A stretch of DNA of 32,000 bases, from contig NZ_CP064923.1 of assembly GCF_018336915.1 (NCBI RefSeq), positions 5,280,001-5,312,000 on the forward strand, given 5' to 3'. Shown piece after piece: positions 9,746 to 32,000 of the stretch. The stretch is from Acaryochloris marina S15 (GTDB lineage Bacteria; Cyanobacteriota; Cyanobacteriia; Thermosynechococcales; Thermosynechococcaceae). The position numbers and the translations under genes were made by a program. The first letter of the stretch is position 1. Each line of letters opens with the position of its first letter. Below the pieces are notes generated by a model. The model did not search any database, had not been told where the DNA came from, and saw only the letters and a list, made by a program, of their open reading frames with translations.

Positions 9746-10675
9746 ATGGTGAATACCCTTACCAGTGTCAGGCCCCAAGTTAAGCGACTGCAAGATAACC
9801 TCGGGACCACCATTGTTGGTAAACATGAGGCCATTCAGTTGGTGCTAGTGGCACTACTGGCCGGAGGACATGCTCTGTTAGAAGATGTGCCTGGAGTAGG
9901 TAAAACCTTGCTGGCTAAGTCTTTAGCCCGCTCCATTGATGGTCAGTTTCATCGAATTCAATGCACGCCAGATTTGCTGCCGAGTGATTTAACCGGGACC
10001 AATATTTGGAATCCCCAAGAAGGAAAATTTGAGTTTCTAGCCGGTCCAATTTTTGCCAATGTGCTGCTCACGGATGAAATTAACCGGGCCACTCCCCGGA
10101 CTCAGTCTGCTCTGCTAGAAGTGATGGAAGAGGCCCAAGTCACCATTGATGGGGTGTCTCATCCCGTCCTCGATCCGTTTTTTGTGATTGCGACCCAAAA
10201 CCCTGTTGAATATCAAGGCACGTTTCCTTTACCCGAAGCCCAGCTGGATCGGTTTGCCTTGGCTTTGAGTTTGGGCTATCCCTCAGAAGCAGAAGAACTG
10301 CAAATGCTAGAGCGTTTGAAGTCTGGCAAATCTTTTCAGAAATTACAGCCCTGCATTACCTTGGCTGAGGTCAAACAGCTCCAGCAAGACTGTCTAGCCA
10401 TTCAAGTAGAATCTTCAGTCCAGCGCTATATCTTGGCGTTGGTGCGCGCCACGCGGGAGCATGATGATATTACTCTAGGTATCAGTCCTAGAGGGACGGT
10501 GACTCTCCAGCGAGCTAGTCAAGCCCTAGCGCTAATAAACGGACGAGATTACGTGCTGCCAGATGATGTAAAGTTCCTGGCTCCCCACGTACTTCGCCAT
10601 CGCCTCATCCCTGCTGCCGGACATTCTGCCCAAGGGATTGTCGAGCAGTTACTGAATGCGATCGCAATTCCCTAA
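9746..10675 (+). CDS. MoxR-family AAA+ ATPase
   Basis: 309 aa. Walker A is EDVPGVGKT and Walker B is LLTDEINRA. Also present are VIATQNPVEYQGTFPLPEAQLDRF and a C-terminal lid (SPRG...). This is the classic MoxR/RavA-subfamily layout. Confidence 0.9.
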   Translation: MVNTLTSVRPQVKRLQDNLGTTIVGKHEAIQLVLVALLAGGHALLEDVPGVGKTLLAKSLARSIDGQFHRIQCTPDLLPSDLTGTNIWNPQEGKFEFLAGPIFANVLLTDEINRATPRTQSALLEVMEEAQVTIDGVSHPVLDPFFVIATQNPVEYQGTFPLPEAQLDRFALALSLGYPSEAEELQMLERLKSGKSFQKLQPCITLAEVKQLQQDCLAIQVESSVQRYILALVRATREHDDITLGISPRGTVTLQRASQALALINGRDYVLPDDVKFLAPHVLRHRLIPAAGHSAQGIVEQLLNAIAIP

Positions 10676-15673: not shown

Positions 15674-16675
15674 TTACTCTGGCACATCACCAACAGCCTG
15701 AGACGTTTGAGCCTGGACAGTCAGCGGATACCCTGCAGGTGACCCCGCTGACCATTCCCACATGGAACCAGCATAGTTTTGCACCTGAAACCCCAAGTCA
15801 GCCAGAACAACCGTTAGCCATCCCGAGCGAATCCCCCCAGTACAGTAAGCCACCACCACAGTTTCTTGGGTAATCCCTAAATTAGCGAGTTTTGCCACAA
15901 TCTGATCTCGGGGTAAAAGCCTGCCTTGAGGCGTTAACAGATCCTGAAAATGTAGGGAAATAGCCCCCGGCACATGCCCTCGCCGCTGCTCTCCATAAGG
16001 AGTCGCTCCTGCATACTCTTTGGGAGTACGCGTATCGATTAACACTAGATTGGGTCGATCAAGAGCCGCTTTTAATTCCGCTTTCTGAATCTGCCAGGTG
16101 GGATTTCTTTGAACCTCAAAATCTCCCTGTTTCGGCATGTCGGGAGCAGTCAGGTTCAATGACACTAAGGCTGAATACCCACCGTCCACCATCACCGCCT
16201 GTGGATGCCCTAGAGTTCTCAACATCCAAACAATCCGTCCCTCCTCTCCCCAACCCTGCGGTGGATTGGCAAAAACAACCACAGGCCGCTCTTTGGAGAT
16301 TCCTAATCTCCTGAGTTTCTGGTTTAAAACTGCATCGCTCTCTAGCAGCGTTCCTTTGCGGACTTTATTAGAGGGAGAAAAATCTTGCCATCGCACCGGA
16401 ATACTCCCCGGTAGCTGATTGAAACCCAACCACTGATTCCCTCGGGCATCCAGCAGGGTAGCGCCTTGATCGACTAAAGCCTTAGCTTCTAATGCACTGA
16501 CCACCCAAGTTTGTTCAAGCTGAGGTAGCTGGGAACGCAGCGTGTAAGAAATTTGCGGCGAATTTGTGCGAGAAGTAGTGTTTGTAGTGTGAGTGAATGC
16601 GATCGCACCCAAAAACAGCACAATTCCCAGAACTGCAGCTCGTATCACCTTTGCAGGAACAGGACTACGCATCAT
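15674..16675 (-). CDS. Tandem-rhodanese sulfurtransferase (thiosulfate/3-mercaptopyruvate sulfurtransferase-like) with an N-terminal membrane anchor or signal sequence
   Basis: There are two rhodanese modules, and the active-site loop CTGGIRSG sits in the C-terminal one. The ORF track starts at 16723, but codons 1-16 overlap the tRNA-Thr on the same strand. I therefore place the start at the MM pair (complement ATG 16673-16675), giving MMRSPVPAKVIRAAVLGIVLFLGAIAF. Confidence 0.85.
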   Translation of the reverse strand: MMRSPVPAKVIRAAVLGIVLFLGAIAFTHTTNTTSRTNSPQISYTLRSQLPQLEQTWVVSALEAKALVDQGATLLDARGNQWLGFNQLPGSIPVRWQDFSPSNKVRKGTLLESDAVLNQKLRRLGISKERPVVVFANPPQGWGEEGRIVWMLRTLGHPQAVMVDGGYSALVSLNLTAPDMPKQGDFEVQRNPTWQIQKAELKAALDRPNLVLIDTRTPKEYAGATPYGEQRRGHVPGAISLHFQDLLTPQGRLLPRDQIVAKLANLGITQETVVVAYCTGGIRSGWLTVVLADLGFQVQNYAGSMWEWSAGSPAGYPLTVQAQTSQAVGDVPE

Positions 16676-16700
16676 CCTATAAGTAGGATAGAAACCAAAA

Positions 16701-16773
16701 AGCTGGTGACATGACTCGAACATGCGACCGGCTGATTACAAATCAGCTGCTCTACCAACTGAGCTACACCAGC
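16701..16773 (-). tRNA. tRNA-Thr (anticodon UGU)
   Basis: The reverse complement folds as a cloverleaf: GCTGGTG TA GCTC AGTTGGTA GAGC A GCTGA TTTGTAA TCAGC CGGTC GCATG TTCGAGT CATGT CACCAGC T. The length is 73 nt and CCA is not encoded. Confidence 0.92.
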
Positions 16774-16976: not shown

Positions 16977-18290
16977 ATGACTATGAATTGGACGGTTGAG
17001 CAAGTGATTGCTCTATCTCCGGACGATAAATCCACCAAAAACGGTAAAAGTTTGGCAAATGCCAGTAAATGGCAAACCTTATGCACAAATAACCAGGCCA
17101 TTTGGGGCGAATGTCGCGGCAGTGGCAAGAAGCCTTACCGCACCCAAATTGATCTCAGCGAACCCGCTTTTCGCTGTAGCTGCCCGAGCCGCAAGTTTCC
17201 CTGCAAGCATTCCCTGGCACTGTTTTTGCTGCTAGCTAACCAAGTCGATTTATTTACCACCGCCGATCCACCTGACTGGGTACAGGAATGGTTAGAGAAG
17301 CGCTCGAAAACCGCATCACGCAAGCAGGCCAAGGCCGCCACCGCCGATCCAGAAGCCCAAGCCAAGCGTATCGCTCAGCGAGAAACCAAAATCCTTGCAG
17401 GTCTGGCCGATTTAGACCAGTGGCTCCAGGATTTAATGCGTCAGGGCTTAGCCACTGCCCAAACTCAACCCTATAGCTTTTGGGAAAAGGCCGCCGCCCG
17501 CATGGTCGATGCCCAAGCCCCCGGACTCGCCCGTCGCCTACGAGAAATGGCCAGTATTCCTCACACAGGCGGCAATTGGCCTTCTCGCCTGTTAGCCGAA
17601 CTGGGCAAGCTTTATTTGCTCATGCAAGGCTATCAGCGACTGGCAACTTTACCAGAAGCCGTGCAAGCAGAACTGCGATCGCAAATCGGCTGGACCCAAA
17701 AACAAGAGGATCTGCTCACTAGCCCCTCCCCTCTAGCGGTCAAGGATACCTGGTCAGTCCTGGGCAAACGGATCACCACCGAAGAAAACTTAAATGTTCA
17801 ACGCGTCTGGCTTTGGGGAATCACCCATCAACGCCCTGCCCTCATTCTCAGTTTTGGGTATCAAAATCAGCCCCTCGACACCAGCTTGATACCCGGAACT
17901 CAGATCTCGGCAGAGTTGGTGTTCTATCCAGGACTCTATCCCCTACGGGCATTGGTCAAAGAGCGACAACCTGGCGTTGACCTCATCCCCCCATCTGGAG
18001 GTGCAGTCCAGCTGGCTGACGCCATCACCCATTACGGAACTGCACTAGCCACCAACCCTTGGCTAGTACAGTTTCCATTGCTGTTAACAGCAGTCATCCC
18101 TCACCAGAAGGATCAACAATGGTACATCGCAGATTCTCATGGGCATCACTTACCCCTCCAGTTAGGGTTTGATGCTTGGTCCCTGCTGGCCTTAAGTGGT
18201 GGGCATCCAATCATGCTCTTTGGTGAATGGAATGGCCACAACCTCCTCCCCCTCAGCCTATGGCCTGACAACCGCTTTGTCCCTTGCTAG
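16977..18290 (+). CDS. SWIM zinc-finger family protein
   Basis: 437 aa. The CxCx6CxH SWIM signature is FRCSCPSRKFPCKHSLALFLL (nt 17175-17210). It is preceded by W..EQV.AL.PD..S..G..LA...W......IWGECRGSGKKPY, which I recognise from the SWIM proteins of SWIM/DUF5691 clusters. Confidence 0.85.
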   Translation: MTMNWTVEQVIALSPDDKSTKNGKSLANASKWQTLCTNNQAIWGECRGSGKKPYRTQIDLSEPAFRCSCPSRKFPCKHSLALFLLLANQVDLFTTADPPDWVQEWLEKRSKTASRKQAKAATADPEAQAKRIAQRETKILAGLADLDQWLQDLMRQGLATAQTQPYSFWEKAAARMVDAQAPGLARRLREMASIPHTGGNWPSRLLAELGKLYLLMQGYQRLATLPEAVQAELRSQIGWTQKQEDLLTSPSPLAVKDTWSVLGKRITTEENLNVQRVWLWGITHQRPALILSFGYQNQPLDTSLIPGTQISAELVFYPGLYPLRALVKERQPGVDLIPPSGGAVQLADAITHYGTALATNPWLVQFPLLLTAVIPHQKDQQWYIADSHGHHLPLQLGFDAWSLLALSGGHPIMLFGEWNGHNLLPLSLWPDNRFVPC

Positions 18291-18293
18291 GAG
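18289..18293 (+). promoter_or_regulatory. Shine-Dalgarno (AGGAG) for the downstream gene, overlapping the SWIM gene stop codon
   Basis: The sequence is ...TGC TAG GAG ATC ATG ATG. AGGAG lies 3 nt before the first ATG and 6 nt before the second, which implies translational coupling of the two genes. Confidence 0.5.
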
Positions 18294-18296
18294 ATC

Positions 18297-19856
18297 ATGA
18301 TGCCAACCCCTTGGGAACAGCTAGTCGCCCATGCCTTAATCGGTACCGATCGCCAAGCTCCACAATTGCCAACGGGCGAGGGGCAACTCGAAGTATTGCT
18401 GAGCCAAGTTCCCCCAGAGCCCGAACCCATGCTCTTACAATCTGCGGGTATTTTGGCCAGTTATCAACAGGCAGGACAATGTGCATTCTCTCAGGTGGGA
18501 CCACTACCGAATCCCTGTCCAGAGGAAACCTTATCCCGCTGCAGTGATCGTACCCATCAACATCTACAAACGATTCTCAATGGCGAATACAAAGACGTTT
18601 TATATGAACTCTTGGATCTCATGGGCCAAGCTCACCAATATGTTCCAGCAGAAACCTTACCCGCCCTCTTAGATCAGGGCCGTGGGCACACCCAGGTACG
18701 ACCCCGTATCCAAAATGTTATGGGTGAACGGGGTCGCTGGTTGGCACAACAACATTCGGCTTGGGCTTATGCAGCAGGTCAACCTTTGCCTTATACCCAG
18801 GCTGGGGAAATCGACCAAGAGGCTGTGGAAAACTTGTGGAAAACTTCTGATTACGCCCTCCGAATCGATCTGTTGAAAACTTTCAGAAGTCTTAATCCTC
18901 AAGCCGCTCGAGAGATGTTGAGCACCACATGGAAACAAGAAAAGGCGAAAGATCGAGCAACGTTTCTCGCCATCCTAACCACGCATCTCAGTGTAGAAGA
19001 TGAACCCTTTCTAGAGATAGCATTACATGATCGCGCCCAGGAAGTCCGCACCTGTGCAGGTGGCCTGCTAGCCCATTTGCCCGATTCACAATATTGCCAG
19101 CGCATGACTGCCCAGGTACAAACCTATATTCAGTTTGAGGACAATACCCTCTCCATTACACTCCCCAAAGATGATGGCTCCTGGAAAACTGAGCGTTCTT
19201 ACTCCCAATCAAGTCAGTTAGGAAGGCGAGGGAGTCTGCTAATGCGAATCGTAGCAGGCGTTCCCTTAAACTTTTGGTCAGGCGATATAGATGCTCTGAT
19301 CCAAACCGCCCAGACACACCAACAGGGTGCTGCTCTATTACAAGGATGGACCATCGCAGCCCAGAGACAAGCCAATCCATCGTGGATCCAACGAATGATG
19401 GGCTATTGGCTCAGCAATCCTACCGAGAAGCAAACCTATGACCCTATTGATTTTCTGATTAAACGGTTGCCCGCTGAACAGGTTGAGCCGCTATTTCTAA
19501 AATACCTAGCCGAATCCAGCTCTCCAGCAGAAAAAGCCACGAAATATATCAGATTAGCCAAGTGGGGCCCATTATTTAGTCCTAATTTCAGTCAAGTCTG
19601 GTGGGAAACCCTCGAGCCTGACCTCAACCTATTACTTGCCAACACTTCAAATTCTTTCCAGGCACGATCACCTTTTGCAACGTTGCTATCGCTGTTCGAG
19701 ACCGTGTCTTTCAATCTGCATCCCATCATTGCAGATGATGTCATTGCTTACCTCAACCACTTGAATAGCGATTCATTCTCGACCTATCAACAAAACAGCT
19801 TGATGCTATGGCAAAACACCCTTGAATTTCGTAAATCTATCTGGGCAGAGTTTTAA
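18297..19856 (+). CDS. DUF5691-like protein (partner of the SWIM protein), containing HEAT-like repeats
   Basis: 519 aa. The N-terminus PWEQLVAHALIGTDRQ matches the W..L...AL.GT.R opening I recall for DUF5691. A HEAT-like segment is present (LHDRAQEVRTCAGGLLAHLPDS). The gene is only 6 nt from the SWIM stop. Confidence 0.7.
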   Translation: MMPTPWEQLVAHALIGTDRQAPQLPTGEGQLEVLLSQVPPEPEPMLLQSAGILASYQQAGQCAFSQVGPLPNPCPEETLSRCSDRTHQHLQTILNGEYKDVLYELLDLMGQAHQYVPAETLPALLDQGRGHTQVRPRIQNVMGERGRWLAQQHSAWAYAAGQPLPYTQAGEIDQEAVENLWKTSDYALRIDLLKTFRSLNPQAAREMLSTTWKQEKAKDRATFLAILTTHLSVEDEPFLEIALHDRAQEVRTCAGGLLAHLPDSQYCQRMTAQVQTYIQFEDNTLSITLPKDDGSWKTERSYSQSSQLGRRGSLLMRIVAGVPLNFWSGDIDALIQTAQTHQQGAALLQGWTIAAQRQANPSWIQRMMGYWLSNPTEKQTYDPIDFLIKRLPAEQVEPLFLKYLAESSSPAEKATKYIRLAKWGPLFSPNFSQVWWETLEPDLNLLLANTSNSFQARSPFATLLSLFETVSFNLHPIIADDVIAYLNHLNSDSFSTYQQNSLMLWQNTLEFRKSIWAEF

Positions 19857-20658
19857 AACTCCTTAGCTTCTAGATCAATTCAGACCAAGTGATTTTTTTC
19901 ATCACTTCTACAAAAGTCTTCAGCATACAAACCGTACTCTACATTGATGTCTAGCTTGAGCTTCATTCAGGCTATCTCAATACTAAGGAAGTTAAAGCTA
20001 TAAAATATAGCGATAAATAGAGATTACAGGAGTATAAGCAATTCTATAACAAAATTTTTTACTAATAAAGCTTAAATCAAGAGTTTTGGCTTAAAAAACT
20101 TTAGCTTGAATAAGCTATCGAAAAGGCAAATATTTATCTTCTTCCACAAGAAAATAGCAATTATTTTTATTTGTGAAATTTTTAATTTCAACCTAAAAAG
20201 CTGTTCTCAATACCTCAAAATAAATTAATAATTCATATCTATTTTGATGCTATAAAAGAGTAAATCTTGCATCACGGAATACTGATATTCTTTATGCGTT
20301 ATCAATAATATAGAAGTGCTTCACTCTATAAGGCTTGGATATTTTACCCAACTTCATAGGGATAGTTTTAGATATTTATAAATTGTTGGGGGAGGAGTAA
20401 AATTTTATCAACCATCTGGTGAGTGCTTTTGATGTCATCGCTTCAAAAACGAGTTGACAGCACAAAAAATTATCCGTAATAACACGCAAGCACCCTGATA
20501 TTTAGATAGTTAGAATAATTGCTAGTGAGGGAAAATCATTAACCAACCTTATGGTTAATGCTCAGAGTGCTTGGAAAATTTTTGATCATTTTTTGTTACT
20601 GACTAGTGATTGTTAGCCACTTTTTCATGTTTCGATAGCTTATCTCTCTCTTCAACCT

Positions 20659-22131
20659 ATGCTGGCCAAGTCTCAAACGATCCTGCCTTCTCCGCCACTT
20701 ACCATTAATCCCCGTGGGTTTGAGTTGTGGTATCAACCGGTTTATGACGTTTCTTCAGGTAACGTTCTTCAGAATGAAGTGCTCTTACGATGGCGGGATA
20801 CCCAAGGACTTATCCATCGGCCGAAAGAATTCATGCCAGCGGTTAGAAGTGCGGATGCCGAGCAATGGTTAGATCGCTATGTGACAGGGCAGGCCATTGC
20901 CCAATTGAAGCAACACGCTCACCTCAAGCTTTCCATCAACTTATCGAAGCGGATCGTTGAAGATCGCTTTATTGCCGAAGACATTTACGATCTGCTGGTC
21001 AACCATAGTGTTCAACCTCATCAGCTTCACTTCGAAGTATCTGAAGCCAGTCTGGCCAAAAATTTTCAGGATTCAGTCGCTTTAATCCGAGATCTAAAAG
21101 AACTAGGGTGCGCCGTCACCTTAGACAATTTTGCCAACCAACATCTCACCTTTCTGCAATGGGAAAAACTAGGGGTTGATGCGGTTAAAATTGACCCGTC
21201 TTTGATTCGCGACCTCAAACAAGACTCGCCCCAAACGCGACTGGCCAAAGCCATCATTGAAACCAGTAACTCATTGGCACAGCCTGCGATCGCAACTTCC
21301 GTAGACGCTTACTCTACCTCTCGTCACTTGGTCAATCTAAGCTTTCAATCTGCTCAGGGATACCACTTCCAGCCTCCTAGCGATCACCCTTGGCTCACGA
21401 GCAAAGTCGACATTTTGGGTGTCCCCATCGATAACGTGACCCAAGACGAACTGCTCCAAGAACTGAAATCGGGTATCGTCTTTACTCCCAATGTTGACCA
21501 CCTGATGAACCTGAAGCAGGATGAGGAGTTTCGGGCTGCTTACAACATTGCCGACTACAAAATTTGCGATAGCCAAATTCTCTACTTTTCCTCCCATTTC
21601 CTCGGTTCACCGATTAAAGAGAAAATCTCAGGTTCAGATTTATTTCCTGCCTTTTACACCTATCACAAAGATAATCCAGACATCACGATTTTTCTGTTAG
21701 GCGCTGCTCCAGGTGTTGCCGCTCAAGCGCAACAAAATATCAATGCTCGCGTGGGTCGTGACATCGTTGTTGGCTCTTACTCCCCTTCCTATAGCTTTGA
21801 GCAAAATCCAGAGGAATGTGCAGAGATTATCGAACGGATCCATCACTCTGGAGCAACAGTTCTCGCCATCGGGGTCGGATCTCCCAAACAAGAACGGTGG
21901 ATTTACCGTTATCGTCAGCAGCTAGCAGAGTCCGTGAATATTATTTTTGCCATTGGTGGGACCTTGGACTTTGAAGCTGGTACTCAACAACGGGCTCCAA
22001 AGCTTGTCAGCACCATTGGCATAGAGTGGCTCTTTCGTTTGATGGGCGAACCAAGACGCCTCTGGAAGCGCTATTTAATTAATGATCTGCCATTCTTGAA
22101 GTTAGTCTTGAATCAAAAGTTTCATCGCTAA
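20659..22131 (+). CDS. Fusion protein: N-terminal EAL domain (partly degenerate) plus C-terminal WecB/TagA/CpsF-family (GT26) glycosyltransferase
   Basis: 490 aa in a single ORF. EAL motifs are YQPV...EVLLRW, SINLS, FEVSE, DNFANQ (in place of DDFGTG), VKID, ATSVD (in place of EGVE) and AQGY. The GT26 part is ILGVPIDNVTQDELL...FTPNVDHLM...IFLLGAAPGVA...LAIGVGSPKQERW...IFAIGGTLDF..G...RAP......GIEWLFRL..EPRRLWKRY. Confidence 0.85.
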   Translation: MLAKSQTILPSPPLTINPRGFELWYQPVYDVSSGNVLQNEVLLRWRDTQGLIHRPKEFMPAVRSADAEQWLDRYVTGQAIAQLKQHAHLKLSINLSKRIVEDRFIAEDIYDLLVNHSVQPHQLHFEVSEASLAKNFQDSVALIRDLKELGCAVTLDNFANQHLTFLQWEKLGVDAVKIDPSLIRDLKQDSPQTRLAKAIIETSNSLAQPAIATSVDAYSTSRHLVNLSFQSAQGYHFQPPSDHPWLTSKVDILGVPIDNVTQDELLQELKSGIVFTPNVDHLMNLKQDEEFRAAYNIADYKICDSQILYFSSHFLGSPIKEKISGSDLFPAFYTYHKDNPDITIFLLGAAPGVAAQAQQNINARVGRDIVVGSYSPSYSFEQNPEECAEIIERIHHSGATVLAIGVGSPKQERWIYRYRQQLAESVNIIFAIGGTLDFEAGTQQRAPKLVSTIGIEWLFRLMGEPRRLWKRYLINDLPFLKLVLNQKFHR

Positions 22132-22255
22132 TTCTTCCGTCACCTCTTTCTAGCAGAGATCTAACCCACCCTATCCAATCTTTTAACCTGTTGAGCAGTG
22201 GGTTGTATTGTCCGGCTGCACAGGCCATGATGAAAGCAGTTGTTATGCAACCCTT

Positions 22256-22675
22256 ATGGATACAGAACATCAACGCTTAACTCTGCAAATTTTGATCGGT
22301 TCAGCCTGGGTAGACCATACCCTCAGTGAACCTGAGGTTACCTATCTCAAAAAGGTGCTAGATCGCTACCATCTCACGCAGGATACCGAGTTACAGAGCC
22401 TCCTCCAAGAGCCTGTTCTTCCTCAACAAACTGAACGCTGGATCGTTGAGTTTTTGAGACAAACAAACCAAGAGGAACGGCTTAAGCTTTTAGCAGCCAT
22501 TGGCAATTTATTAATTGCAGATGATGTAGTGTCAGAGATAGAGCATGACCTCCTAGATGAGTATCATGCCTTAATGGCTAAGATCCCTGATGATCCAAAT
22601 CACATTACCAACTTAGTCAGAAATATTGGCTCTTACGTGAACAAAGCACTGCAAACCCTTGCCAACTTACCTTAA
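22256..22675 (+). CDS. TerB-like (tellurite-resistance TerB / DjlA N-terminal fold) family protein, tentative
   Basis: The ORF track starts at TTG 22208, but ATG 22256 (MDTEHQRLTLQILIGSAWVDHTLSEPEVTYLKKVL) is more plausible. The paired helical segments ...GSAWVDH..SEPE... and ...LLIADDVVSEIEHDLLDEY resemble the TerB-type repeat. Confidence 0.55.
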   Translation: MDTEHQRLTLQILIGSAWVDHTLSEPEVTYLKKVLDRYHLTQDTELQSLLQEPVLPQQTERWIVEFLRQTNQEERLKLLAAIGNLLIADDVVSEIEHDLLDEYHALMAKIPDDPNHITNLVRNIGSYVNKALQTLANLP

Positions 22676-23562
22676 GGTGCAGAGGTAAACGCCTGGTCTC
22701 GAAGCTGCTTAGACACCATATAGGGCTTTGGATCGACTGGCTTATCATTACGATAAATCGAGTAATGCAAATGCGTCCCTGTCGATCGCCCTGTACTTCC
22801 CATAAAGCCCAACAACTGTCCTCGCTTAATGGAAGTATTGGGCTTAACCGCTAATTTGGAAAGATGGGCATACAAAGTTTGGTATCCATACCCATGCTGA
22901 ATGACAACGTGATACCCATAACCACCAGAGTATCCAGCCCGTTCAATCTTGCCATGGGCTGTTGCGTAAATGGGAGCGCCATAATCACCCAACAAATCTA
23001 TACCGTCATGGATCTCTGCACTACCCCCAAAAGGACCGGGACGCAAACCAAAATCAGAAGAAATAGGACTATTACCTTTGGTCGGCTTACCTTGAGGTAG
23101 GGCAGCGTTGCGGGCTTCTTCTGCTTGTAACGTCTTTTCTAACGCTGGCTGTACTTGCTGTTTGAGGCGTGACGCCAACGCAGGTAAGCGTGATTTCGCA
23201 AACTGGAGCTGCTGCTCCGCATCTACAACAACGGAAACTCCCCCTTTTCCGCCTTTGTCTTCTACATTGACTTGCTGGCGCTCTGCGGTTGACAATCCAG
23301 CTCGCTGACGAAGTTTTTCGACTTCTTCGTCTAATACTTCTAACTCTTCTAAAACCTCAGCGGCTGATTCTGACAACTGATCATGTCTTTGCTGCATCTG
23401 CTGCAATGCCTGGAAGGTCTTACCCGCCCAGACCGCAGGAACAGCAGCCATTGATAAGCCCAAAATGATCAGGATAGGACTAACCGAAAACTTAATGGAA
23501 CGTTGTCCTGTTAGGGTAATCAAGATCCGAAAGCGCTTCGGGATCGGAAGAAGAGAACGCAT
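22672..23562 (-). CDS. M23-family (LytM-type) metallopeptidase with N-terminal membrane anchor and coiled-coil
   Basis: The C-terminal motifs are HDGIDL...GAPIYA, GYGYHVVIQHGYGYQTLYAHL and GSTGRSTGTHLHYSIY (HxxxD / HxH). The ORF track start 23577 is TTG, so ATG 23562 (MRSLLPIP...) is preferred. Confidence 0.88.
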   Translation of the reverse strand: MRSLLPIPKRFRILITLTGQRSIKFSVSPILIILGLSMAAVPAVWAGKTFQALQQMQQRHDQLSESAAEVLEELEVLDEEVEKLRQRAGLSTAERQQVNVEDKGGKGGVSVVVDAEQQLQFAKSRLPALASRLKQQVQPALEKTLQAEEARNAALPQGKPTKGNSPISSDFGLRPGPFGGSAEIHDGIDLLGDYGAPIYATAHGKIERAGYSGGYGYHVVIQHGYGYQTLYAHLSKLAVKPNTSIKRGQLLGFMGSTGRSTGTHLHYSIYRNDKPVDPKPYMVSKQLRDQAFTSAP

Positions 23563-23941
23563 AGAGGCCCAACACAAAGGATTCGTGAAGAATCATATCA
23601 AATTATGAGACCAATCTTAAATATTTCTTAAAAAACAAGGCAAGTACTGCATTTGGGGCATAGAGAAATTTCTTGGCAGACCACCGTGTTAACCGTACTA
23701 GCAGATCTGAACGAAATTTCAGTCAATATTGAAGAATCGCTGCTCGCCAACATTTTATCCCTCAAGCAGACATTTTTACACGCTTTCACTCATACGGAAG
23801 AGGGCCAGCCGTGAATGGGTATGATGAGAATAGGGCTGATACAACAACTACCACACTCAGCTAATCCTCAGATCCACAGAATCCGTGGATTGATATATCC
23901 TAAGAACAGCTTTTCTTAGCTCAATACATCATTTTAGAATT

Positions 23942-28558: not shown

Positions 28559-28751
28559 AACGGATATTCCATATCTCCTCAGCCTGGCGTGAGAAATTGA
28601 TCTCGATATTGTAGAGGCTCAACTCATACCAAAGTGATTTTGATGGTGGTGGAAGTTGGCTCATTTATAAACTTCGACAAAAATATCACAATCTAGACCA
28701 GAGAACCCTGCTGTCATCAGTGAGATCTGTTATGATCAGTTTTGCTCACCC

Positions 28752-28840
28752 GGAGAGGTGGCTGAGTGGTCGAAAGCGGCAGATTGCTAATCTGTTGTAC
28801 GGTGAATTCCGTACCGAGGGTTCGAATCCCTCCCTCTCCG
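28752..28840 (+). tRNA. tRNA-Ser (anticodon GCU), class II with long variable arm
   Basis: The sequence is GGAGAGG TG GCT GAGTGGTCGAA AGC G GCAGA TTGCTAA TCTGT, then a variable arm with stem GTACGG/CCGTAC, then GAGGG TTCGAAT CCCTC CCTCTCC G. It is followed by TTTTTT. Confidence 0.93.
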
Positions 28841-28872
28841 TTTTTTGCAGCTTTTTGTTGGAGTTAAGTTTC

Positions 28873-29109
28873 ATGGGCAAAAAATGCCAATTAACGGGAA
28901 AAAAAGCAAATAATGCTTTTGCTGTTTCCCATTCCCACCGCCGAACCCACAAGTTGCAAGAAGCAAACTTGCAGTGGAAAAGAATCTGGTGGCCCCAAGA
29001 GAAACGCTGGGTCAAGCTCAGAATATCGACTAAAGCGATTAAGACCCTTGAGAAAAAAGGTCTCGCTACTTTCGCTCGCGAAGCTGGGATTAACCTTAAC
29101 CAGGTATAG
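28873..29109 (+). CDS. rpmB: 50S ribosomal protein L28
   Basis: 78 aa: [63 protein letters not shown]. This is the canonical L28 sequence pattern. The 129 aa ORF in the track is an artefactual extension through the tRNA-Ser. Confidence 0.93.
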
Positions 29110-29383
29110 CTCGCTGTAAGGTTGAGATTAGTCTTGATAGGTTTACGGTGCATAGAAGCCGTTAACACTGTTTTGTGAATCGCTACTGTTTTGAGCAGCG
29201 AACTGGGTTCACTACAATGTTTGCTTCAATTTTACGGGCAAGCACAAAACTAGCAAATATCAACTACGGTTCGTACTCAGTAAAGTGCGATAGGATTTGT
29301 GTATCTAAAATCTCTAGCTGCCCAGATTGATAAGAGAAGGCCTCAAGAATCACTATAAACCCACCCTGAATGCCTAAGCTTAC

Positions 29384-30451
29384 CTATTGGGCGGAAGAGG
29401 GGACCATCCAGATAGGCGGATTACCATCAGCAATCGCATAGGGTCCAGAGAAAAATGGATTGCGAATTCCCGGCAGGATCTGGACATCAAAAATTTCATC
29501 TACGCCGCTTTGAAACTCCAGCAGCCCTAATTGCTTACCAGCATTTAGATCTACAACCGCCATTCCGCATTTAAGGTCATCGAAATGGTCACAGATGGGT
29601 AAATTGCCGAATGTGGCTGTCTCTCTCACTTTAGATAGTCCTACAAATGCAAACTGACCTGCTATAGCCAGCCCTCTAGGGTAGCCAGGTAGCTCTAGGA
29701 CTGTCGAGCGCTCTCCAGAAGATAAATCAACCCGACAGAGTTCTCCACAACCTGAGTTCAGGACCCATAACTGATCGTCCCTCACCCGAGGAGAGTGAGG
29801 CATGGCTAATCCTTGTGTCACCACTTTGCTGGTGGGCAACTCTAGGACGCAGCCATTCGTCGCTTTATGAGGCCGCCACCCCCCCGCCGTATTAGTACGA
29901 TCAAGAACGGTGGCATATTTGGGATATCCGTTCACTAACGCCACCCCATTCAGGTGGCAACGATCCTCAGGGGCCAACTCCTGAACAAAGTCAGGTCGCC
30001 ATTGGGGCACAAAGCTATAGTTATTGTCCAATGAGCATAAGCAAGAAAACCGGGTATTGGTCACCACCAACTGCTCTGTGCCCCACGCCAATTCATGCAC
30101 AGCAATTTCGCTGGTATAGTGAGCGCCTCGAGTTAAAAAACAAGCATCATGTGTGTTGGGCTCACCGACAGAAGCCGCTAGTTCGGGCGCATTCTTCAGA
30201 AAATAGATCCAATCTTTACCTCCCACAGCGATCTGTTTGGAGCTGGCTGCGACTCCCATGGCTTGCTCAAAATTATGGAAAGAAATCTGAAGTGCCTGGT
30301 CATGAACGCCAACAACCACAAGTTTGCCAGCTTGATACGTAGATAGCAGAAGAGACGCATTCAATTGCATCAGTAATGGCACCAGATTATTAGAGTACTG
30401 ATAACGTACTTCTCGTTCGGGAAAATTCTCTGAAGCTGTATTTTTTTGCAT
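29384..30451 (-). CDS. TIGR03032 / DUF4915-family protein (uncharacterised, probable beta-propeller)
   Basis: 355 aa. The N-terminal LLLSTYQAGKLVVVG...FEQAMGVA and the later repeated hydrophobic-Gly/Asp blade-like segments match my recollection of TIGR03032. Confidence 0.65.
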   Translation of the reverse strand: MQKNTASENFPEREVRYQYSNNLVPLLMQLNASLLLSTYQAGKLVVVGVHDQALQISFHNFEQAMGVAASSKQIAVGGKDWIYFLKNAPELAASVGEPNTHDACFLTRGAHYTSEIAVHELAWGTEQLVVTNTRFSCLCSLDNNYSFVPQWRPDFVQELAPEDRCHLNGVALVNGYPKYATVLDRTNTAGGWRPHKATNGCVLELPTSKVVTQGLAMPHSPRVRDDQLWVLNSGCGELCRVDLSSGERSTVLELPGYPRGLAIAGQFAFVGLSKVRETATFGNLPICDHFDDLKCGMAVVDLNAGKQLGLLEFQSGVDEIFDVQILPGIRNPFFSGPYAIADGNPPIWMVPSSAQ

Positions 30452-31342
30452 AAAAGGTTATGACATCCCAAGAAATTTCAAGCCTGCTTTATGCCCAAAA
30501 TTACAGCTGACTCTTTGCATGCCATTGAACACTGTTGCTACTATATCTAATCAGTTGCGATATAAGTCTTGGGAACAAGTATTAGGATATTTATTTAATA
30601 CTTAAAAAGTATCAGATAACTCTGGCAAGATAATAAAAAAAATTATTAAGACTCTACAAATTCCATCAAAAATACCTACAAAAAAATATCACTTTGGTAT
30701 ATGATTTATACGGACATTAAATCTATTTTTTAAAAAAATAGGTTTAATCGATATCTTAAAAATTTCAATAGATAGACTGTCCACAGCCTTTTTAGTGCAG
30801 TGTCTCAATTGAGTGCAATTAAAAAAACGTCGCACATTATCACCCTTCATCTGTCAGGAGATCTCTGCAATACTTGAGCACTGTTTAACCTATATAAACG
30901 CAAATCCAAAGAAGCTTTGCCATAACCATATGGCTAGCTATACTTCTGCCTGAGTCTTTTCAGGTCCAGTCTAATTTTTTTGTGGACTGAAGAAATATAT
31001 AAAGCATAATGCTATCGATTCGAGATATAGACATATATTCAGAGGATATATACAATCTTCCTGAATAAAATCAGTTATAGGTCAAATAATTAGCTCAAAT
31101 CAAAACACTTTAGATCGAAAAACTTACAAGTGCAGCCTAGACTTAGAAATACATGCTTACTTAAAAGAGCTTATTTTTTTGCTTGTTTTTAGCACTTAAA
31201 TATCGAAGTACTTCATCTAGGTTAATCCAATTAACACTGGCATGCTTCAGCACTATTCATATATAAATAACTAACTTTTTTTATTCAATATCTTGCAATC
31301 TCTATTCACTTTTCTTGTTGGAAATAATGTGAGATTCTCAAA

Positions 31343-32000
31343 ATGAACTCTAACAATATTGCATTAACTACAGAAATCACAGGAGCACGCCTTCTCAAAG
31401 ATATCACCCCAGACGGTACGTCTAGATTTCCAGGTGATGACTCCGGTTCTAATCCATCGAACTTGACCGAATTCGATGGCAAGCTATTTTTTTCAGCGGA
31501 TGATGGAACCAATGGAAGCGAGCTGTGGATTAGTGACAGGACTACTAATGGCACACAGCTTTTAAAAGATATTAATCCAATCGAAAGGTACTATAACAGT
31601 CTCTATGCATCTAGATATAGATCTTCTAGTTCTAATCCATCGAACTTGACCGAATTCGATGGCAAGCTATTTTTTTCAGCGGATGATGGAACCAATGGAA
31701 GCGAGCTATGGATTAGTGACGGGACTATTAATGGCACACAACTCTTAAAAGATATTAATCCAGGAAGCTCGTATAGGGGAATCCCATCCCCAGGTGGCCG
31801 GCGGCCTAATAGCTCTCGTATAGCTAACTTCATCGAACTCGATGGTAAGTTATTTTTTACCGCGACTGATGGCACCTCCGGAGAAGAACTTTGGGTCAGT
31901 GATGGGACGGTTGACGGTACACAACTGCTAAAAGATATTTATCCTGGAAGCTCATTTGAGTCTCGCATAAACCGGGGTTTGCGGCCCAACAGCTCTGGTA
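31343..32000 (+). CDS. ELWxxDGT-repeat protein, N-terminal part (gene runs off the right edge)
   Basis: An open frame runs from ATG 31343 to the window end, with an in-frame TAA at 31325 upstream. At least three units of the form F(D/E)G/DGKLFF.A.DGT.G.ELW(I/V)SDGT..GT.LLKDI.P are present. It is absent from the ORF track because there is no stop codon in the window. Confidence 0.8.
   Translation, partial: MNSNNIALTTEITGARLLKDITPDGTSRFPGDDSGSNPSNLTEFDGKLFFSADDGTNGSELWISDRTTNGTQLLKDINPIERYYNSLYASRYRSSSSNPSNLTEFDGKLFFSADDGTNGSELWISDGTINGTQLLKDINPGSSYRGIPSPGGRRPNSSRIANFIELDGKLFFTATDGTSGEELWVSDGTVDGTQLLKDIYPGSSFESRINRGLRPNSSG
31446..31762 (+). repeat. In-frame tandem duplication (period 183 nt = 61 codons) inside the ELWxxDGT gene
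   Basis: 31446-31579 and 31629-31762 (134 nt each) differ at only 5 positions by my alignment. The third repeat unit, from about 31810, is conserved only at the protein level. Confidence 0.85.

What the first reader, a model, noticed from the sequence alone, without database searches (positions are those of the whole stretch)
20659..22131. Single-polypeptide fusion of a degenerate EAL domain to a GT26 (WecB/TagA/CpsF) glycosyltransferase
The ORF is continuous, with an EAL domain at roughly aa 15-245 and a GT26 domain at roughly aa 250-485. Reading the EAL motifs against the known catalytic set (RocR, TBD1265 and YkuI literature), several are retained: E-V-L, the following Arg, the N of SINLS, E-x-x-E (EVSE), K of KID and Q of QGY. 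However, DDFGTG is DNFANQ, and the EGVE general-base glutamate position reads ATSVD. This pattern is typical of EAL domains that still bind c-di-GMP but hydrolyse it poorly or not at all, such as the LapD and FimX classes. A c-di-GMP-sensing module fused directly to a GT26 enzyme would be a direct second-messenger switch on synthesis of a cell-wall or exopolysaccharide linkage unit. That would be analogous to PilZ in BcsA or the degenerate GGDEF in PelD, but I do not recall this architecture being characterised. The gene has no N-terminal sensor or TM segment and sits behind an unusually long AT-rich upstream region.
Basis: partly seen in the sequence, partly recalled or inferred. Interest (0 to 1): 0.72.

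Follow-up and report, generated by a model that had tools for sequence, protein, structure and literature searches.

The report
Degenerate EAL domain fused to glycosyltransferase
An Acaryochloris gene joins a probably non-hydrolysing cyclic-di-GMP-binding (EAL) domain directly to an intact GT26 sugar transferase; this conserved but unstudied design could let the second messenger switch on an early lipid-linked step of surface-polysaccharide synthesis.

Summary
Window 20659-22131 (+) is one 490-aa ORF with an EAL domain (aa 19-240, E 1e-49) and a GT26 WecG/TagA/CpsF domain (aa 248-490, E 2e-53), joined by a 7-residue linker with no indels.

It is the Acaryochloris marina protein WP_249369574.1, annotated only as a glycosyltransferase. 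About 75 protein clusters (90% identity) carry the same fusion. All named ones are cyanobacteria, and the fused GT26 domains form one clade, which suggests a single origin.

In 28 aligned members every ligand of the first metal site, the catalytic Lys and the nucleotide-contact residues are invariant. The second-metal and general-base positions are replaced: D→N/G/S, and E→K in 26 of 28 (T in the window). The GT26 catalytic residues and C-terminal appendage are intact.

The same EAL signature occurs in sister cyanobacterial proteins, where the domain is fused to HlyD-type membrane-fusion proteins or to a transmembrane tail.

Best reading (about 0.5): a non-hydrolysing c-di-GMP receptor module that allosterically gates a peripheral-membrane GT26. 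Binding, direction of control and sugar specificity are untested. I found no paper describing it. This is a new variant of a known kind, of moderate interest.

The parts
20659..22131 (+). Single ORF of 490 aa plus stop codon: the EAL-GT26 fusion protein, identical to WP_249369574.1 of Acaryochloris marina
20713..21378 (+). EAL domain, aa 19-240. It has a TIM-barrel-like fold, modelled at high confidence, that superposes on EAL crystal structures at about 2 A rmsd
   Evidence: Pfam PF00563 E 1.2e-49; AF2 model pLDDT 88.6; Foldseek hits on RbdA, MucR, MorA, FimX and LapD at E 1e-15 to 1e-18
20773..20790 (+). N-E40-V-L-L-R44: the EAL-motif Glu (first-metal ligand) and the nucleotide-contact Arg. 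Both are invariant in 28 family members
21124..21141 (+). DNFANQ in place of DDFGTG. D156 (first Asp) is invariant. Position 157 (second-metal Asp) is N here and N/G/D/S/T across the family. The loop-6 Gly-Thr-Gly is lost
21292..21306 (+). ATSVD in place of A-EGVE. The general-base/second-metal Glu is T213 here and Lys in 26 of 28 family members
21379..21399 (+). Seven-residue linker SDHPWLT between the domains. No insertions or deletions occur at the junction in any of the 28 aligned homologues
21400..22128 (+). GT26 (WecG/TagA/CpsF, GT-E fold) domain, aa 248-490. The following are kept: T276, N278, D304 (catalytic base equivalent to TagA Asp65), Q411, E412. TagA Arg83 is replaced by K322
   Evidence: Pfam core aa 298-472, E 1.6e-53; alignment to TagA 7mpk, E 7e-35; residue roles from PMC6493773; residue table
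21991..22128 (+). C-terminal appendage of the GT26 domain, aa 445-490. It keeps the three Arg residues (R460, R467, R471) equivalent to TagA Arg214/221/224, and a long terminal amphipathic helix. In TagA this element completes the active site and binds the membrane
19857..20658 (+). 802-nt intergenic region upstream, 30.9% G+C. No Rfam family matches, and promoter- and terminator-like matches are not more frequent than in shuffled sequence
20475..20535 (+). 61-nt block nearly invariant in four Acaryochloris genomes, including one with a different upstream gene. It contains a TAGAAT -10-like hexamer. Candidate promoter or operator; function not shown
   Evidence: alignment A2; pattern search
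20537..20560 (+). Hairpin CATTAACC-N8-GGTTAATG in the putative 5' leader. The stem is kept through changes on both strands in L001 and L002

Best explanation
The gene encodes a soluble or peripheral-membrane two-domain enzyme.

The C-terminal GT26 (GT-E fold) domain is a functional inverting glycosyltransferase. It adds a sugar from a nucleotide-sugar to a polyprenyl-diphosphate-linked primer at the cytoplasmic face of the membrane. This is an early, committing step of a surface polysaccharide, most likely an exopolysaccharide of the Wzx/Wzy type.

The N-terminal EAL domain has lost c-di-GMP hydrolysis but keeps a complete nucleotide pocket: one metal site, the catalytic Lys and the base and phosphate contacts. 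In most family members a Lys occupies the place of the second metal and general base. It therefore acts as a built-in c-di-GMP receptor.

Binding of c-di-GMP changes the EAL domain's conformation or dimerisation. Through the short rigid linker, this shifts the GT26 domain between an inactive (self-associated or occluded) state and an active state. In the active state the domain is monomeric and membrane-bound, with the C-terminal appendage folded over the active site.

By analogy with every other c-di-GMP-controlled polysaccharide synthase, high c-di-GMP is expected to activate.

Shown: the architecture, its conservation, the residue pattern, and the intact GT26 catalytic set. Inferred: ligand binding, loss of hydrolysis, the allosteric route, the direction of control, and the identity of the glycan.
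For: 1. The two domains lie in one ORF. The 7-residue linker has no indels in 28 homologues that go down to 44% identity. The AF2 model has pTM 0.85 for the whole chain, so the domains are predicted to pack in a defined orientation.

2. Selection pattern in 28 family members. Invariant: Q26, E40, L42, R44, N94, E126, E129, D156, K177, Q233, G234. These are the first-metal ligands, the Lys and the c-di-GMP contacts. In PA3825, M1 is bound by Glu39, Asn98, Asp130 and Asp160 (PMC5301497). The three second-metal ligands of PA3825 (Asp161, Asp183, Glu217) correspond to positions that are not kept: 157 = N16/G6/D3/S2/T1; 179 = D14/R6/E4/N3/Q1; 213 = K26/T2.

3. The protein fails the seven-residue criterion for an intact catalytic site, because the RocR E352 equivalent is lost. 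It keeps 3 of the 4 extra c-di-GMP-recognition residues (PMC2952852). FimX binds c-di-GMP with far fewer conserved residues (PMC3527489; PMC5301497 Table 2).

4. The same N157/K213 signature is found in the closest EAL relatives, which carry other membrane or envelope partners: EAL-TM-HlyD, and EAL plus a transmembrane tail. Two clade members, Gloeobacter kilaueensis P0315 and P0312, keep canonical AESVE (P0315 also DDF). This argues for a derived, stable, portable module.

5. The GT26 residues T276, N278, D304, Q411, E412, R460, R467 and R471 match the TagA catalytic and appendage residues. TagA is regulated by a dimer (inactive) to membrane-bound monomer (active) switch, which offers an obvious handle for an appended regulatory domain.

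6. A. marina has a very large c-di-GMP network: 60 GGDEF/EAL proteins in MBIC11017 (PMC3747582).

7. There is precedent for a c-di-GMP-binding domain fused to a glycosyltransferase that it activates: NfrB, GT2 + MshEN (PMC8669469).
Against: - There is no biochemical evidence of any kind for this family.
- The domain keeps more of the catalytic machinery than the proven receptors FimX and LapD: the first-metal site, the Lys, and D179 in the window protein. Slow or conditional hydrolysis therefore cannot be excluded.
- The window protein and its closest relative (2 of the 28 aligned) have Thr, not Lys, at position 213, so the 'Lys replaces the metal' idea does not apply to this particular protein.
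- The gene is not in a polysaccharide gene cluster. Its neighbours are housekeeping or unrelated genes, so neither the pathway nor the glycan is identified.
- A subclade (P0061, P0064, P0067, P0068) has Asn at the GT26 catalytic-base position and His/Gln at the Arg221 equivalent. In those proteins the transferase itself may be inactive.
- Interdomain contacts could not be inspected, because only summary statistics of the model were available.
Confidence: 0.5

Rival explanations
1. The EAL domain is still a phosphodiesterase, slow, one-metal or conditionally active. The fusion would place a local c-di-GMP sink, or a 'trigger enzyme', next to a glycosyltransferase. Turnover of c-di-GMP, rather than mere binding, would then set the output.
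For: Six of the seven residues of the published catalytic-site criterion are present. The first-metal site and the catalytic Lys177 are invariant. The window protein also keeps D179, the PA3825 Asp183 equivalent. PA3825 was captured with pGpG and an empty second-metal site.
Against: - The general-base/second-metal Glu is absent in all 28 members (K or T), and the second Asp of DDFGTG is kept in only 3 of 28.
- The loop-6 G-T-G motif is gone. Its positioning is described as necessary for forming the active site (PMC5301497).
- From memory of the RocR and TBD1265 mutagenesis, which I could not retrieve here, replacing either residue abolishes or nearly abolishes activity.
- A conserved charge-reversing E→K is not what relaxed or retained catalysis would produce.
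Confidence: 0.15
2. The EAL domain no longer binds any nucleotide. It serves only as a dimerisation or protein-interaction scaffold, as YdiV does (CsrD and BluF from memory). For example, it might recruit the GT26 enzyme to a partner.
For: Degenerate EAL domains of this kind exist: YdiV has lost most c-di-GMP-coordinating residues and works by protein binding (PMC3510510). EAL domains commonly dimerise. In one subclade the GT26 catalytic base is also lost, which hints at non-enzymatic roles.
Against: YdiV-type domains have lost the nucleotide-contact residues. Here all of them (Q26, E40, L42, R44, N94, E126, E129, D156, K177, Q233) are invariant over sequences that are otherwise only 44-89% identical to the window protein. 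That is hard to explain without a ligand in the pocket.
Confidence: 0.15
3. The pocket binds a different ligand, such as pGpG or another cyclic or linear dinucleotide. It would report on that ligand rather than on c-di-GMP.
For: The FimX EAL domain crystallises with pGpG (PMC3527489). The change of about three charges in the pocket (E63→x, D157→N, E213→K/T) could alter ligand preference. This last point is my inference.
Against: The residues that recognise c-di-GMP in characterised EAL domains are unchanged. I recall no EAL domain with a primary ligand other than c-di-GMP or its product.
Confidence: 0.08
4. The fusion is an artefact: a frameshift or misassembly has joined two genes.
For: None found.
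Against: The identical 490-aa protein is in RefSeq from complete A. marina genomes. There are 29 members in its 90% cluster, about 75 clusters with both Pfam domains, and 20 independent genome loci with the same junction.
Confidence: 0.01

Closest known systems
FimX and LapD: degenerate EAL domains that act as c-di-GMP receptors
   Same: An EAL fold that lacks part of the catalytic set and, in these proteins, binds c-di-GMP without turnover and passes the signal to another module. Structural similarity to the model is high: Foldseek E about 1e-16 to 1e-17, TM about 0.8-0.86 on the target. LapD is the best EAL-side NCBIfam match (third in the whole table), though far below its cut-off.
   Different: FimX keeps only 4 of 10 conserved residues and lacks the DDFGTG metal motif. 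FimX and LapD complexes contain no metal (Table 2). The window protein keeps 7 of 10, with a complete first-metal site. In FimX and LapD the EAL domain follows a degenerate GGDEF domain, and the output is pilus assembly or periplasmic proteolysis. Here the EAL is N-terminal, has no GGDEF partner, and is fused directly to an enzyme.
YkuI (Bacillus subtilis): EAL domain that binds c-di-GMP with one metal and shows no activity
   Same: One-metal c-di-GMP complex (Ca2+ at M1, Table 2) with an otherwise well-conserved pocket. EAL at the N-terminus, followed by a different C-terminal domain.
   Different: The YkuI partner is a PAS-like putative sensor domain, not an output enzyme, and its function is unknown. 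From memory, YkuI retains the general-base Glu. I could not retrieve the paper to check this.
NfrB (E. coli): GT2 glycosyltransferase with a C-terminal MshEN c-di-GMP-binding domain
   Same: A c-di-GMP-binding domain on the same polypeptide as a glycosyltransferase, which it allosterically activates. It controls synthesis of a secreted polysaccharide (PMC8669469).
   Different: The receptor fold differs (MshEN versus EAL) and so does the transferase (processive, membrane-embedded GT2 synthase versus non-processive, peripheral GT26/GT-E acting on a lipid-linked primer). NfrB is encoded with its export partners; the window gene is not.
BcsA-PilZ, PelD and PgaCD: c-di-GMP-activated exopolysaccharide synthases
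   Same: The same logic: the second messenger acts post-translationally on the polysaccharide machinery (general knowledge; reviewed in PMC8892547, which was listed but not read in detail).
   Different: These act on processive synthases or their co-polymerases, through PilZ, degenerate GGDEF I-site or interface binding. None involves a GT26 enzyme, an EAL receptor, or the lipid-linked-primer stage of a Wzx/Wzy-type pathway.
TagA/TarA, WecG (and GumM, from memory): characterised GT26 enzymes
   Same: The same fold and catalytic residues, and the same C-terminal appendage with three Arg residues and an amphipathic membrane-binding helix.
   Different: About 35% identity at most. Scores are far below the equivalog cut-offs: TarA 93 versus 350; WecG 96 versus 323; EpsA 148 versus 500. 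The characterised enzymes have no regulatory domain. The donor sugar here is unknown.

Membership tests
EAL domain superfamily (Pfam PF00563) | Significant match to the family profile over its full length, with a TIM-barrel-like fold | tested here: met
   169 bits against a cut-off of 31.3, profile positions 11-236 of 236. The AF2 model superposes on more than 40 EAL structures at 1.6-3 A rmsd.
Catalytically competent EAL phosphodiesterase | All seven catalytic-site residues present (RocR E175, N233, E265, E268, D295, K316, E352; criterion of PMC2952852) | tested here: not met
   E40, N94, E126, E129, D156 and K177 are present. The E352 equivalent is T213 (K in 26 of 28 relatives).
Catalytically competent EAL phosphodiesterase | Intact DDFGTG / loop-6 motif supplying the second-metal Asp | tested here: not met
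   DNFANQ at aa 156-161. The second Asp is kept in only 3 of 28 relatives, and G-T-G is absent in all. The role of the motif is described in PMC5301497.
Degenerate EAL c-di-GMP receptors (FimX/LapD type) | Catalytic set incomplete while nucleotide-contact residues are retained | tested here: met
   Q26, E40, L42, R44, N94, D156, K177 and Q233 are invariant, and three of ten canonical residues are replaced.
Degenerate EAL c-di-GMP receptors (FimX/LapD type) | Specific binding of c-di-GMP without turnover | not testable with these tools
   Needs DRaCALA or ITC, plus a phosphodiesterase assay, on purified protein.
LapD (NCBIfam NF045673 equivalog) | Score at or above the curated cut-off; HAMP-GGDEF-EAL architecture | tested here: not met
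   96.5 bits against a cut-off of 1020. Only the EAL part matches, and there is no HAMP or GGDEF.
GT26 / WecG-TagA-CpsF glycosyltransferases (PF03808, GT-E fold) | Profile match, plus the catalytic Asp (TagA Asp65) and Thr37/Asn39/Gln167/Glu168 pocket residues | tested here: met
   181 bits against a cut-off of 27.4. D304, T276, N278, Q411 and E412 align to the TagA residues. Arg83 is replaced by K322.
GT26 / WecG-TagA-CpsF glycosyltransferases (PF03808, GT-E fold) | Conserved C-terminal appendage with active-site Arg residues and a membrane-binding helix | tested here: met
   R460, R467 and R471 align to TagA Arg214/221/224. Helices are predicted at aa 448-489.
TagA/TarA ManNAc-transferase, WecG, EpsA (NCBIfam equivalogs) | Score at or above the equivalog cut-off, which implies the same substrate | tested here: not met
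   TarA 93 versus 350; WecG 95.7 versus 323; EpsA 148 versus 500. The donor and acceptor sugars are therefore unassigned.
c-di-GMP-regulated glycosyltransferases (functional class: BcsA, NfrB and others) | GT activity that depends on c-di-GMP binding to a domain of the same protein or complex | not testable with these tools
   Only the architecture and the residue pattern are available. NfrB is the precedent.

The most novel reading that the evidence does not exclude
The EAL domain belongs to a previously unnoticed clade specific to cyanobacteria. In it, the second-metal/general-base site has been rebuilt (D→N, E→K) into a one-metal, non-hydrolysing c-di-GMP pocket. The module has then been plugged onto at least three envelope outputs: a GT26 glycosyltransferase, HlyD-type membrane-fusion proteins, and a transmembrane tail.

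In the GT26 fusion it would be two firsts. It would be the first second-messenger switch acting on a GT-E-fold enzyme. It would also be the first acting at the lipid-linked-primer (commitment) step of a polysaccharide pathway rather than at a processive synthase, working through the monomer/dimer membrane-association switch known for TagA.
Probability: 0.4. Interest if true: 0.7.

Novelty: new variant of a known kind. Interest (0 to 1): 0.55.

Why it matters
All characterised c-di-GMP control points on polysaccharide synthesis that I know of act on processive synthases or their partners: BcsA, PelD, Alg44, PgaCD, NfrB.

A receptor built into a GT26 enzyme would show that the messenger can also gate the early, lipid-linked commitment step of a Wzx/Wzy-type pathway. 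It would also give a simple single-polypeptide system for studying how EAL-domain ligand binding is passed to an enzyme.

It would add an effector to cyanobacterial c-di-GMP signalling. Acaryochloris alone encodes about 60 GGDEF/EAL proteins. From memory, few cyanobacterial c-di-GMP effectors have been identified.

The shared N/K signature also flags a set of related candidate receptors (EAL-HlyD and EAL-TM proteins) that could be tested in the same way.

If instead the domain proves inactive and non-binding, the family becomes another example of an EAL pseudoenzyme scaffold, which is of lesser interest.

Tried and rejected
1. Riboswitch or known RNA in the long upstream region. The Rfam gathering scan of the whole window found only two tRNAs. 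A permissive scan of 19700-20800 gave only chance-level snoRNA matches with E of 0.24 or more. Folding 20515-20665 gave z = 0.06. Rejected as a known RNA element.

2. EAL remnant in the roughly 350-aa stand-alone GT26 proteins of Nodosilinea. tblastn matches seemed to start at query aa 170. The pairwise alignments show only over-extension with no motif conservation, and tblastn with the EAL half alone finds nothing there. Rejected.

3. EAL+GT26 fusions outside this clade, or in reverse order. All 15 'two-stretch' hits among the top 150 of 1.84 billion representatives are tandem GT26-GT26 proteins. None found.

4. A conserved polysaccharide operon around the fusion gene. Neighbours are DUF5691/SWIM, TerB-like and M23 peptidase in Acaryochloris, and fumarase, MutL and a PD-(D/E)XK nuclease in Thermosynechococcaceae and Altericista. 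There is no functional linkage to exploit.

5. Small ORFs in the intergenic region. Only chance ORFs of 40 aa or fewer.

6. The primary RocR, YkuI and FimX papers are not held in the library. Residue roles were taken from PMC5301497, PMC2952852 and PMC3527489 instead.

7. A word-index search with the EAL half alone returned only 8 hits and was uninformative. The profile search replaced it.

8. Interdomain contacts in the AF2 model could not be inspected, because only summary statistics are returned.
Full report
**What is there**

Window 20659-22131 (+) is a single 490-aa ORF. Pfam places an EAL domain at aa 19-240 (E 1.2e-49) and a Glyco_tran_WecG (GT26) domain at aa 298-472 (E 1.6e-53). The full-length TagA structure 7mpk aligns from aa 249 to aa 482 (E 7e-35). 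The GT26 module therefore starts about seven residues after the EAL domain ends.

The exact protein is in RefSeq as WP_249369574.1, 'WecB/TagA/CpsF family glycosyltransferase [Acaryochloris marina]', on a 5.88-Mb replicon. The MBIC11017 orthologue is ABW27684.1 / UniProt B0C800 and is 94% identical. The original GenBank models are 468 aa, 22 residues shorter than the 490-aa RefSeq model. If that shortfall is N-terminal, which I did not check, they would start inside the first EAL strand. The fusion is real and already deposited, but it is named only for its C-terminal half.

HMMER alignments to the active phosphodiesterases MucR (5m1t), RbdA (8pps) and MorA (4rni), and a MAFFT alignment, give the table below.

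| Canonical element | In the window protein | Status |
|---|---|---|
| E-A-L Glu | E40 (E-V-L) | kept |
| Arg after the motif | R44 | kept |
| Asn of NLS | N94 | kept |
| E-x-x-E | E126, E129 | kept |
| DDFGTG, first Asp | D156 | kept |
| Lys of K-I-D | K177 | kept |
| Gln of QG | Q233 | kept |
| DDFGTG as a whole | DNFANQ | degenerate |
| A-EGVE | ATSVD | degenerate |

The published seven-residue test for an intact EAL catalytic site uses RocR E175, N233, E265, E268, D295, K316 and E352 (PMC2952852). The protein has six of the seven. It lacks the E352 equivalent, and it has three of the four extra c-di-GMP-recognition residues.

**Family and evolution**

A search of 5.8 billion proteins found about 75 clusters (at 90% identity) with both Pfam domains and 44-100% identity over the full length. 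All the named ones are cyanobacteria: Acaryochloris and Acaryochloridaceae, Thermosynechococcaceae, Altericista, Petrachloros (Synechococcales 'C'), Stenomitos and 'Lyngbya confervoides' BDU141951.

In a library of 1.84 billion 50%-identity representatives, only three clusters are full-length fusions. Every other 'two-stretch' hit in the top 150 is a tandem GT26-GT26 protein.

In a neighbour-joining tree, the GT26 halves of the fusions form one clade. It is nested among stand-alone cyanobacterial GT26 proteins that are 55-65% identical to the window's C-terminal half. This fits a single fusion event followed by vertical descent.

The junction has no insertion or deletion in any of the 28 aligned members. 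An AlphaFold2 model built on that alignment has mean pLDDT 88.6 and pTM 0.85 for the whole chain. Together these argue for a fixed interdomain geometry.

**The degeneracy is patterned, not decay**

Across the 28 members:

| Position (role) | Residues observed |
|---|---|
| Q26, E40, L42, R44, D72, N94, E126, E129, D156, K177, Q233, G234 | invariant |
| 157 (second Asp of DDFGTG) | N16 / G6 / D3 / S2 / T1 |
| 179 (Asp of K-I-D) | D14 / R6 / E4 / N3 / Q1 |
| 213 (first Glu of EGVE) | K26 / T2 (T in the window) |

In the PA3825 EAL structures the first metal is held by Glu39, Asn98, Asp130 and Asp160. The second metal is held by Asp161, Asp183 and, in the Ca2+ complex, Glu217 (PMC5301497). The family has therefore kept the entire first-metal site, the catalytic Lys and the nucleotide contacts under strict selection. 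It has discarded exactly the second-metal/general-base ligands, and in most members it has put a Lys there.

For comparison, FimX retains only 4 of the 10 canonical residues and still binds c-di-GMP, without a metal. I infer a pocket that still binds Mg2+/Ca2+-c-di-GMP but cannot hydrolyse it at a useful rate. From memory of the RocR and TBD1265 mutagenesis, which I could not retrieve, loss of either residue is enough to abolish activity.

**A portable module**

The nearest EAL relatives are 34-43% identical to the window's EAL domain, against 25-27% for the three aligned active references, MucR, MorA and RbdA. They are N-terminal EAL domains followed by one of two partners:
- a transmembrane segment and a HlyD-type membrane-fusion protein (P0192, P0251 from a Limnospira MAG, P0259);
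- a transmembrane helix and a short tail, in proteins of about 305 aa (Pseudanabaena, Tumidithrix, Neosynechococcus and others).

Most share the Asn-157 state and nearly all the Lys-213 state, down to the ...QGYHLKPPS ending in P0192. Two clade members keep canonical AESVE: P0315 of Gloeobacter kilaueensis (which also keeps DDF and the AE Glu) and P0312.

So a derived, stable EAL variant has been combined with at least three membrane or envelope partners. That is the behaviour of a regulatory input module.

**The transferase half**

The residues shown to matter in TagA are present:

| TagA residue (role where stated) | Window protein |
|---|---|
| Thr37 | T276 |
| Asn39 | N278 |
| Asp65 (proposed base) | D304 |
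| Gln167 / Glu168 | Q411 / E412 |
| Arg214 / Arg221 / Arg224 (appendage) | R460 / R467 / R471 |
| Arg83 | K322 (conservative change) |

 TagA is inactive as a cytoplasmic dimer. It is active as a membrane-bound monomer, with the C-terminal appendage folded into the active site (PMC6493773). That equilibrium is an obvious lever for an appended domain whose own dimerisation responds to ligand.

Substrate cannot be assigned. The scores are far below the TarA, WecG and EpsA equivalog cut-offs.

Gene context of the fusion is uninformative:
- In Acaryochloris: SWIM + DUF5691 upstream, and a TerB-like gene plus an M23 peptidase downstream.
- In Thermosynechococcaceae and Altericista: fumarase and MutL upstream, and a PD-(D/E)XK nuclease downstream.

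Several stand-alone orthologues in Nostocales and Oscillatoriales do sit among GT2, GT4, Wzy_C and Wzc-like genes. An exopolysaccharide repeat-unit pathway is therefore the best guess.

**Mechanism proposed**

c-di-GMP binds the EAL pocket and alters EAL conformation or dimerisation. The rigid linker passes this to the GT26 domain, shifting it towards the membrane-bound, appendage-closed active state. By analogy with BcsA, PelD, PgaCD and NfrB, high c-di-GMP should activate. NfrB is a GT2 enzyme with a fused MshEN receptor that allosterically activates it (PMC8669469).

Shown: architecture, conservation, residue pattern, intact GT26 set. Inferred: binding, lack of turnover, allostery, direction of control, glycan.

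Confidence is about 0.5. The rivals are residual phosphodiesterase or trigger-enzyme activity (0.15), a ligand-free scaffold (0.15), another ligand (0.08) and an artefact (about 0.01, refuted).

**Caveats**

- The window protein has Thr, not Lys, at position 213.
- A divergent subclade (P0061, P0064, P0067, P0068) has Asn at the GT26 catalytic base and His/Gln at the Arg221 equivalent, so both halves may be non-catalytic there.
- I could not inspect the model's interdomain interface.

**Upstream region**

The 802-nt spacer (30.9% G+C) matches no Rfam family. Spacer length is not conserved outside Acaryochloris, where it ranges from 143 to 650 nt.

The last 190 nt or so are conserved in four Acaryochloris genomes, including one with a different upstream gene. 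Two features stand out:
- a nearly invariant 61-nt block at 20475-20535 that contains TAGAAT;
- a hairpin at 20537-20560 whose stem is kept through changes on both strands.

This looks like a promoter or operator plus a structured leader. Its function is unknown, and the overall fold is no more stable than shuffled sequence.

**Novelty**

No paper in the searchable library describes an EAL-GT26 protein. The cyanobacterial c-di-GMP census counts six EAL-only proteins in A. marina without mentioning partner enzymes.

The idea of c-di-GMP acting post-translationally on polysaccharide synthesis is well established. The receptor type, the enzyme family and the pathway step would all be new. I rate it a new variant of a known kind, with interest 0.55.

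Noticed in passing
P0192, P0251, P0259, P0217 (EAL-TM-HlyD); P0230 and P0290-P0316 (about 305-aa EAL + TM tail); not in the window: A cyanobacterial EAL clade mostly shares the window domain's signature: Asn (or Ser/Asp) for the second Asp of DDFGTG, and Lys (or Thr) for the first Glu of EGVE. It occurs with HlyD-type membrane-fusion proteins or with a single transmembrane tail. Gloeobacter kilaueensis P0315 and P0312 keep canonical AESVE (P0315 also DDF). None appears to be characterised.
   Followed up: partly
P0061, P0064, P0067 (Lyngbya confervoides BDU141951; L019), P0068: A divergent subclade of the EAL-GT26 family has Asn at the GT26 catalytic-base position (CNSQ instead of CDSQ) and His/Gln at the TagA Arg221 equivalent, while keeping the EAL pocket. 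Both halves may be non-catalytic there.
   Followed up: partly
window 20475-20560: A 61-nt block (CGTAATAACACGCAAGCACCCTGATATTTAGATAGTTAGAATAATTGCTAGTGAGGGAAAA) is nearly invariant in four Acaryochloris genomes. It is followed by a hairpin whose stem is kept through changes on both strands. It matches no Rfam family. Candidate promoter or operator plus leader of the fusion gene.
   Followed up: partly
window 20160-20330: A second AT-rich stretch in the spacer (…ATTTATCTTCTTCCACAAGAAAA…AAATAAATTAATAAT…GATGCTATAAAAGAGTAAATCTTGCATCA) is conserved between the window, L003 and L001, and partly in L002. Its purpose is unknown.
   Followed up: no
window 22208-22675 (+) and 22672-23577 (-): A 155-aa TerB-like protein (weak Pfam hit, E 1.7e-4) lies 76 nt downstream on the same strand. 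A convergent M23 peptidase gene overlaps its end by 4 nt. The pair follows the fusion gene in the window and six Acaryochloris-group loci, but not in the other fusion-bearing lineages examined.
   Followed up: partly
window 16977-19856 (+) and 9746-10675 (+): A SWIM zinc-finger protein (437 aa) is immediately followed by a DUF5691 protein (519 aa). A MoxR-type AAA+ ATPase lies 6 kb upstream. I did not look into whether these form a system.
   Followed up: no
window 16701-16773 (-) and 15674-16723 (-): tRNA-Thr(UGU) overlaps the first 23 nt of the mechanically called 349-aa rhodanese-domain ORF, so the true start of that gene is probably further downstream. Likewise tRNA-Ser(GCU) at 28751-28841 (+) lies under two spurious ORFs (28720-29109 +, 28746-29168 -).
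   Followed up: no
window 30001-32000: G+C drops to 38-39% at the end of the window, next to a DUF4915 gene (29384-30451, -). This may be the edge of an island or another AT-rich spacer.
   Followed up: no
P0128, P0152, P0157 and others; P0129, P0139, P0167; P0122; P0162, P0187 (not in the window): GT26 domains elsewhere occur as tandem GT26-GT26 proteins. They are also fused to STAS domains, to the Bac_transf priming phosphotransferase, to GT4, or to VanZ. The STAS fusions suggest that GT26 enzymes have acquired regulatory domains more than once.
   Followed up: partly
ABW27684.1, QUY45368.1, UJB71950.1 versus the RefSeq WP_ records: The original GenBank models of this gene are 468 aa, 22 residues shorter than the 490-aa model that family alignments support. 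If the shortfall is N-terminal (not checked), they would start inside EAL strand beta-1. All the named Acaryochloris entries seen name the protein only for its glycosyltransferase half.
   Followed up: yes
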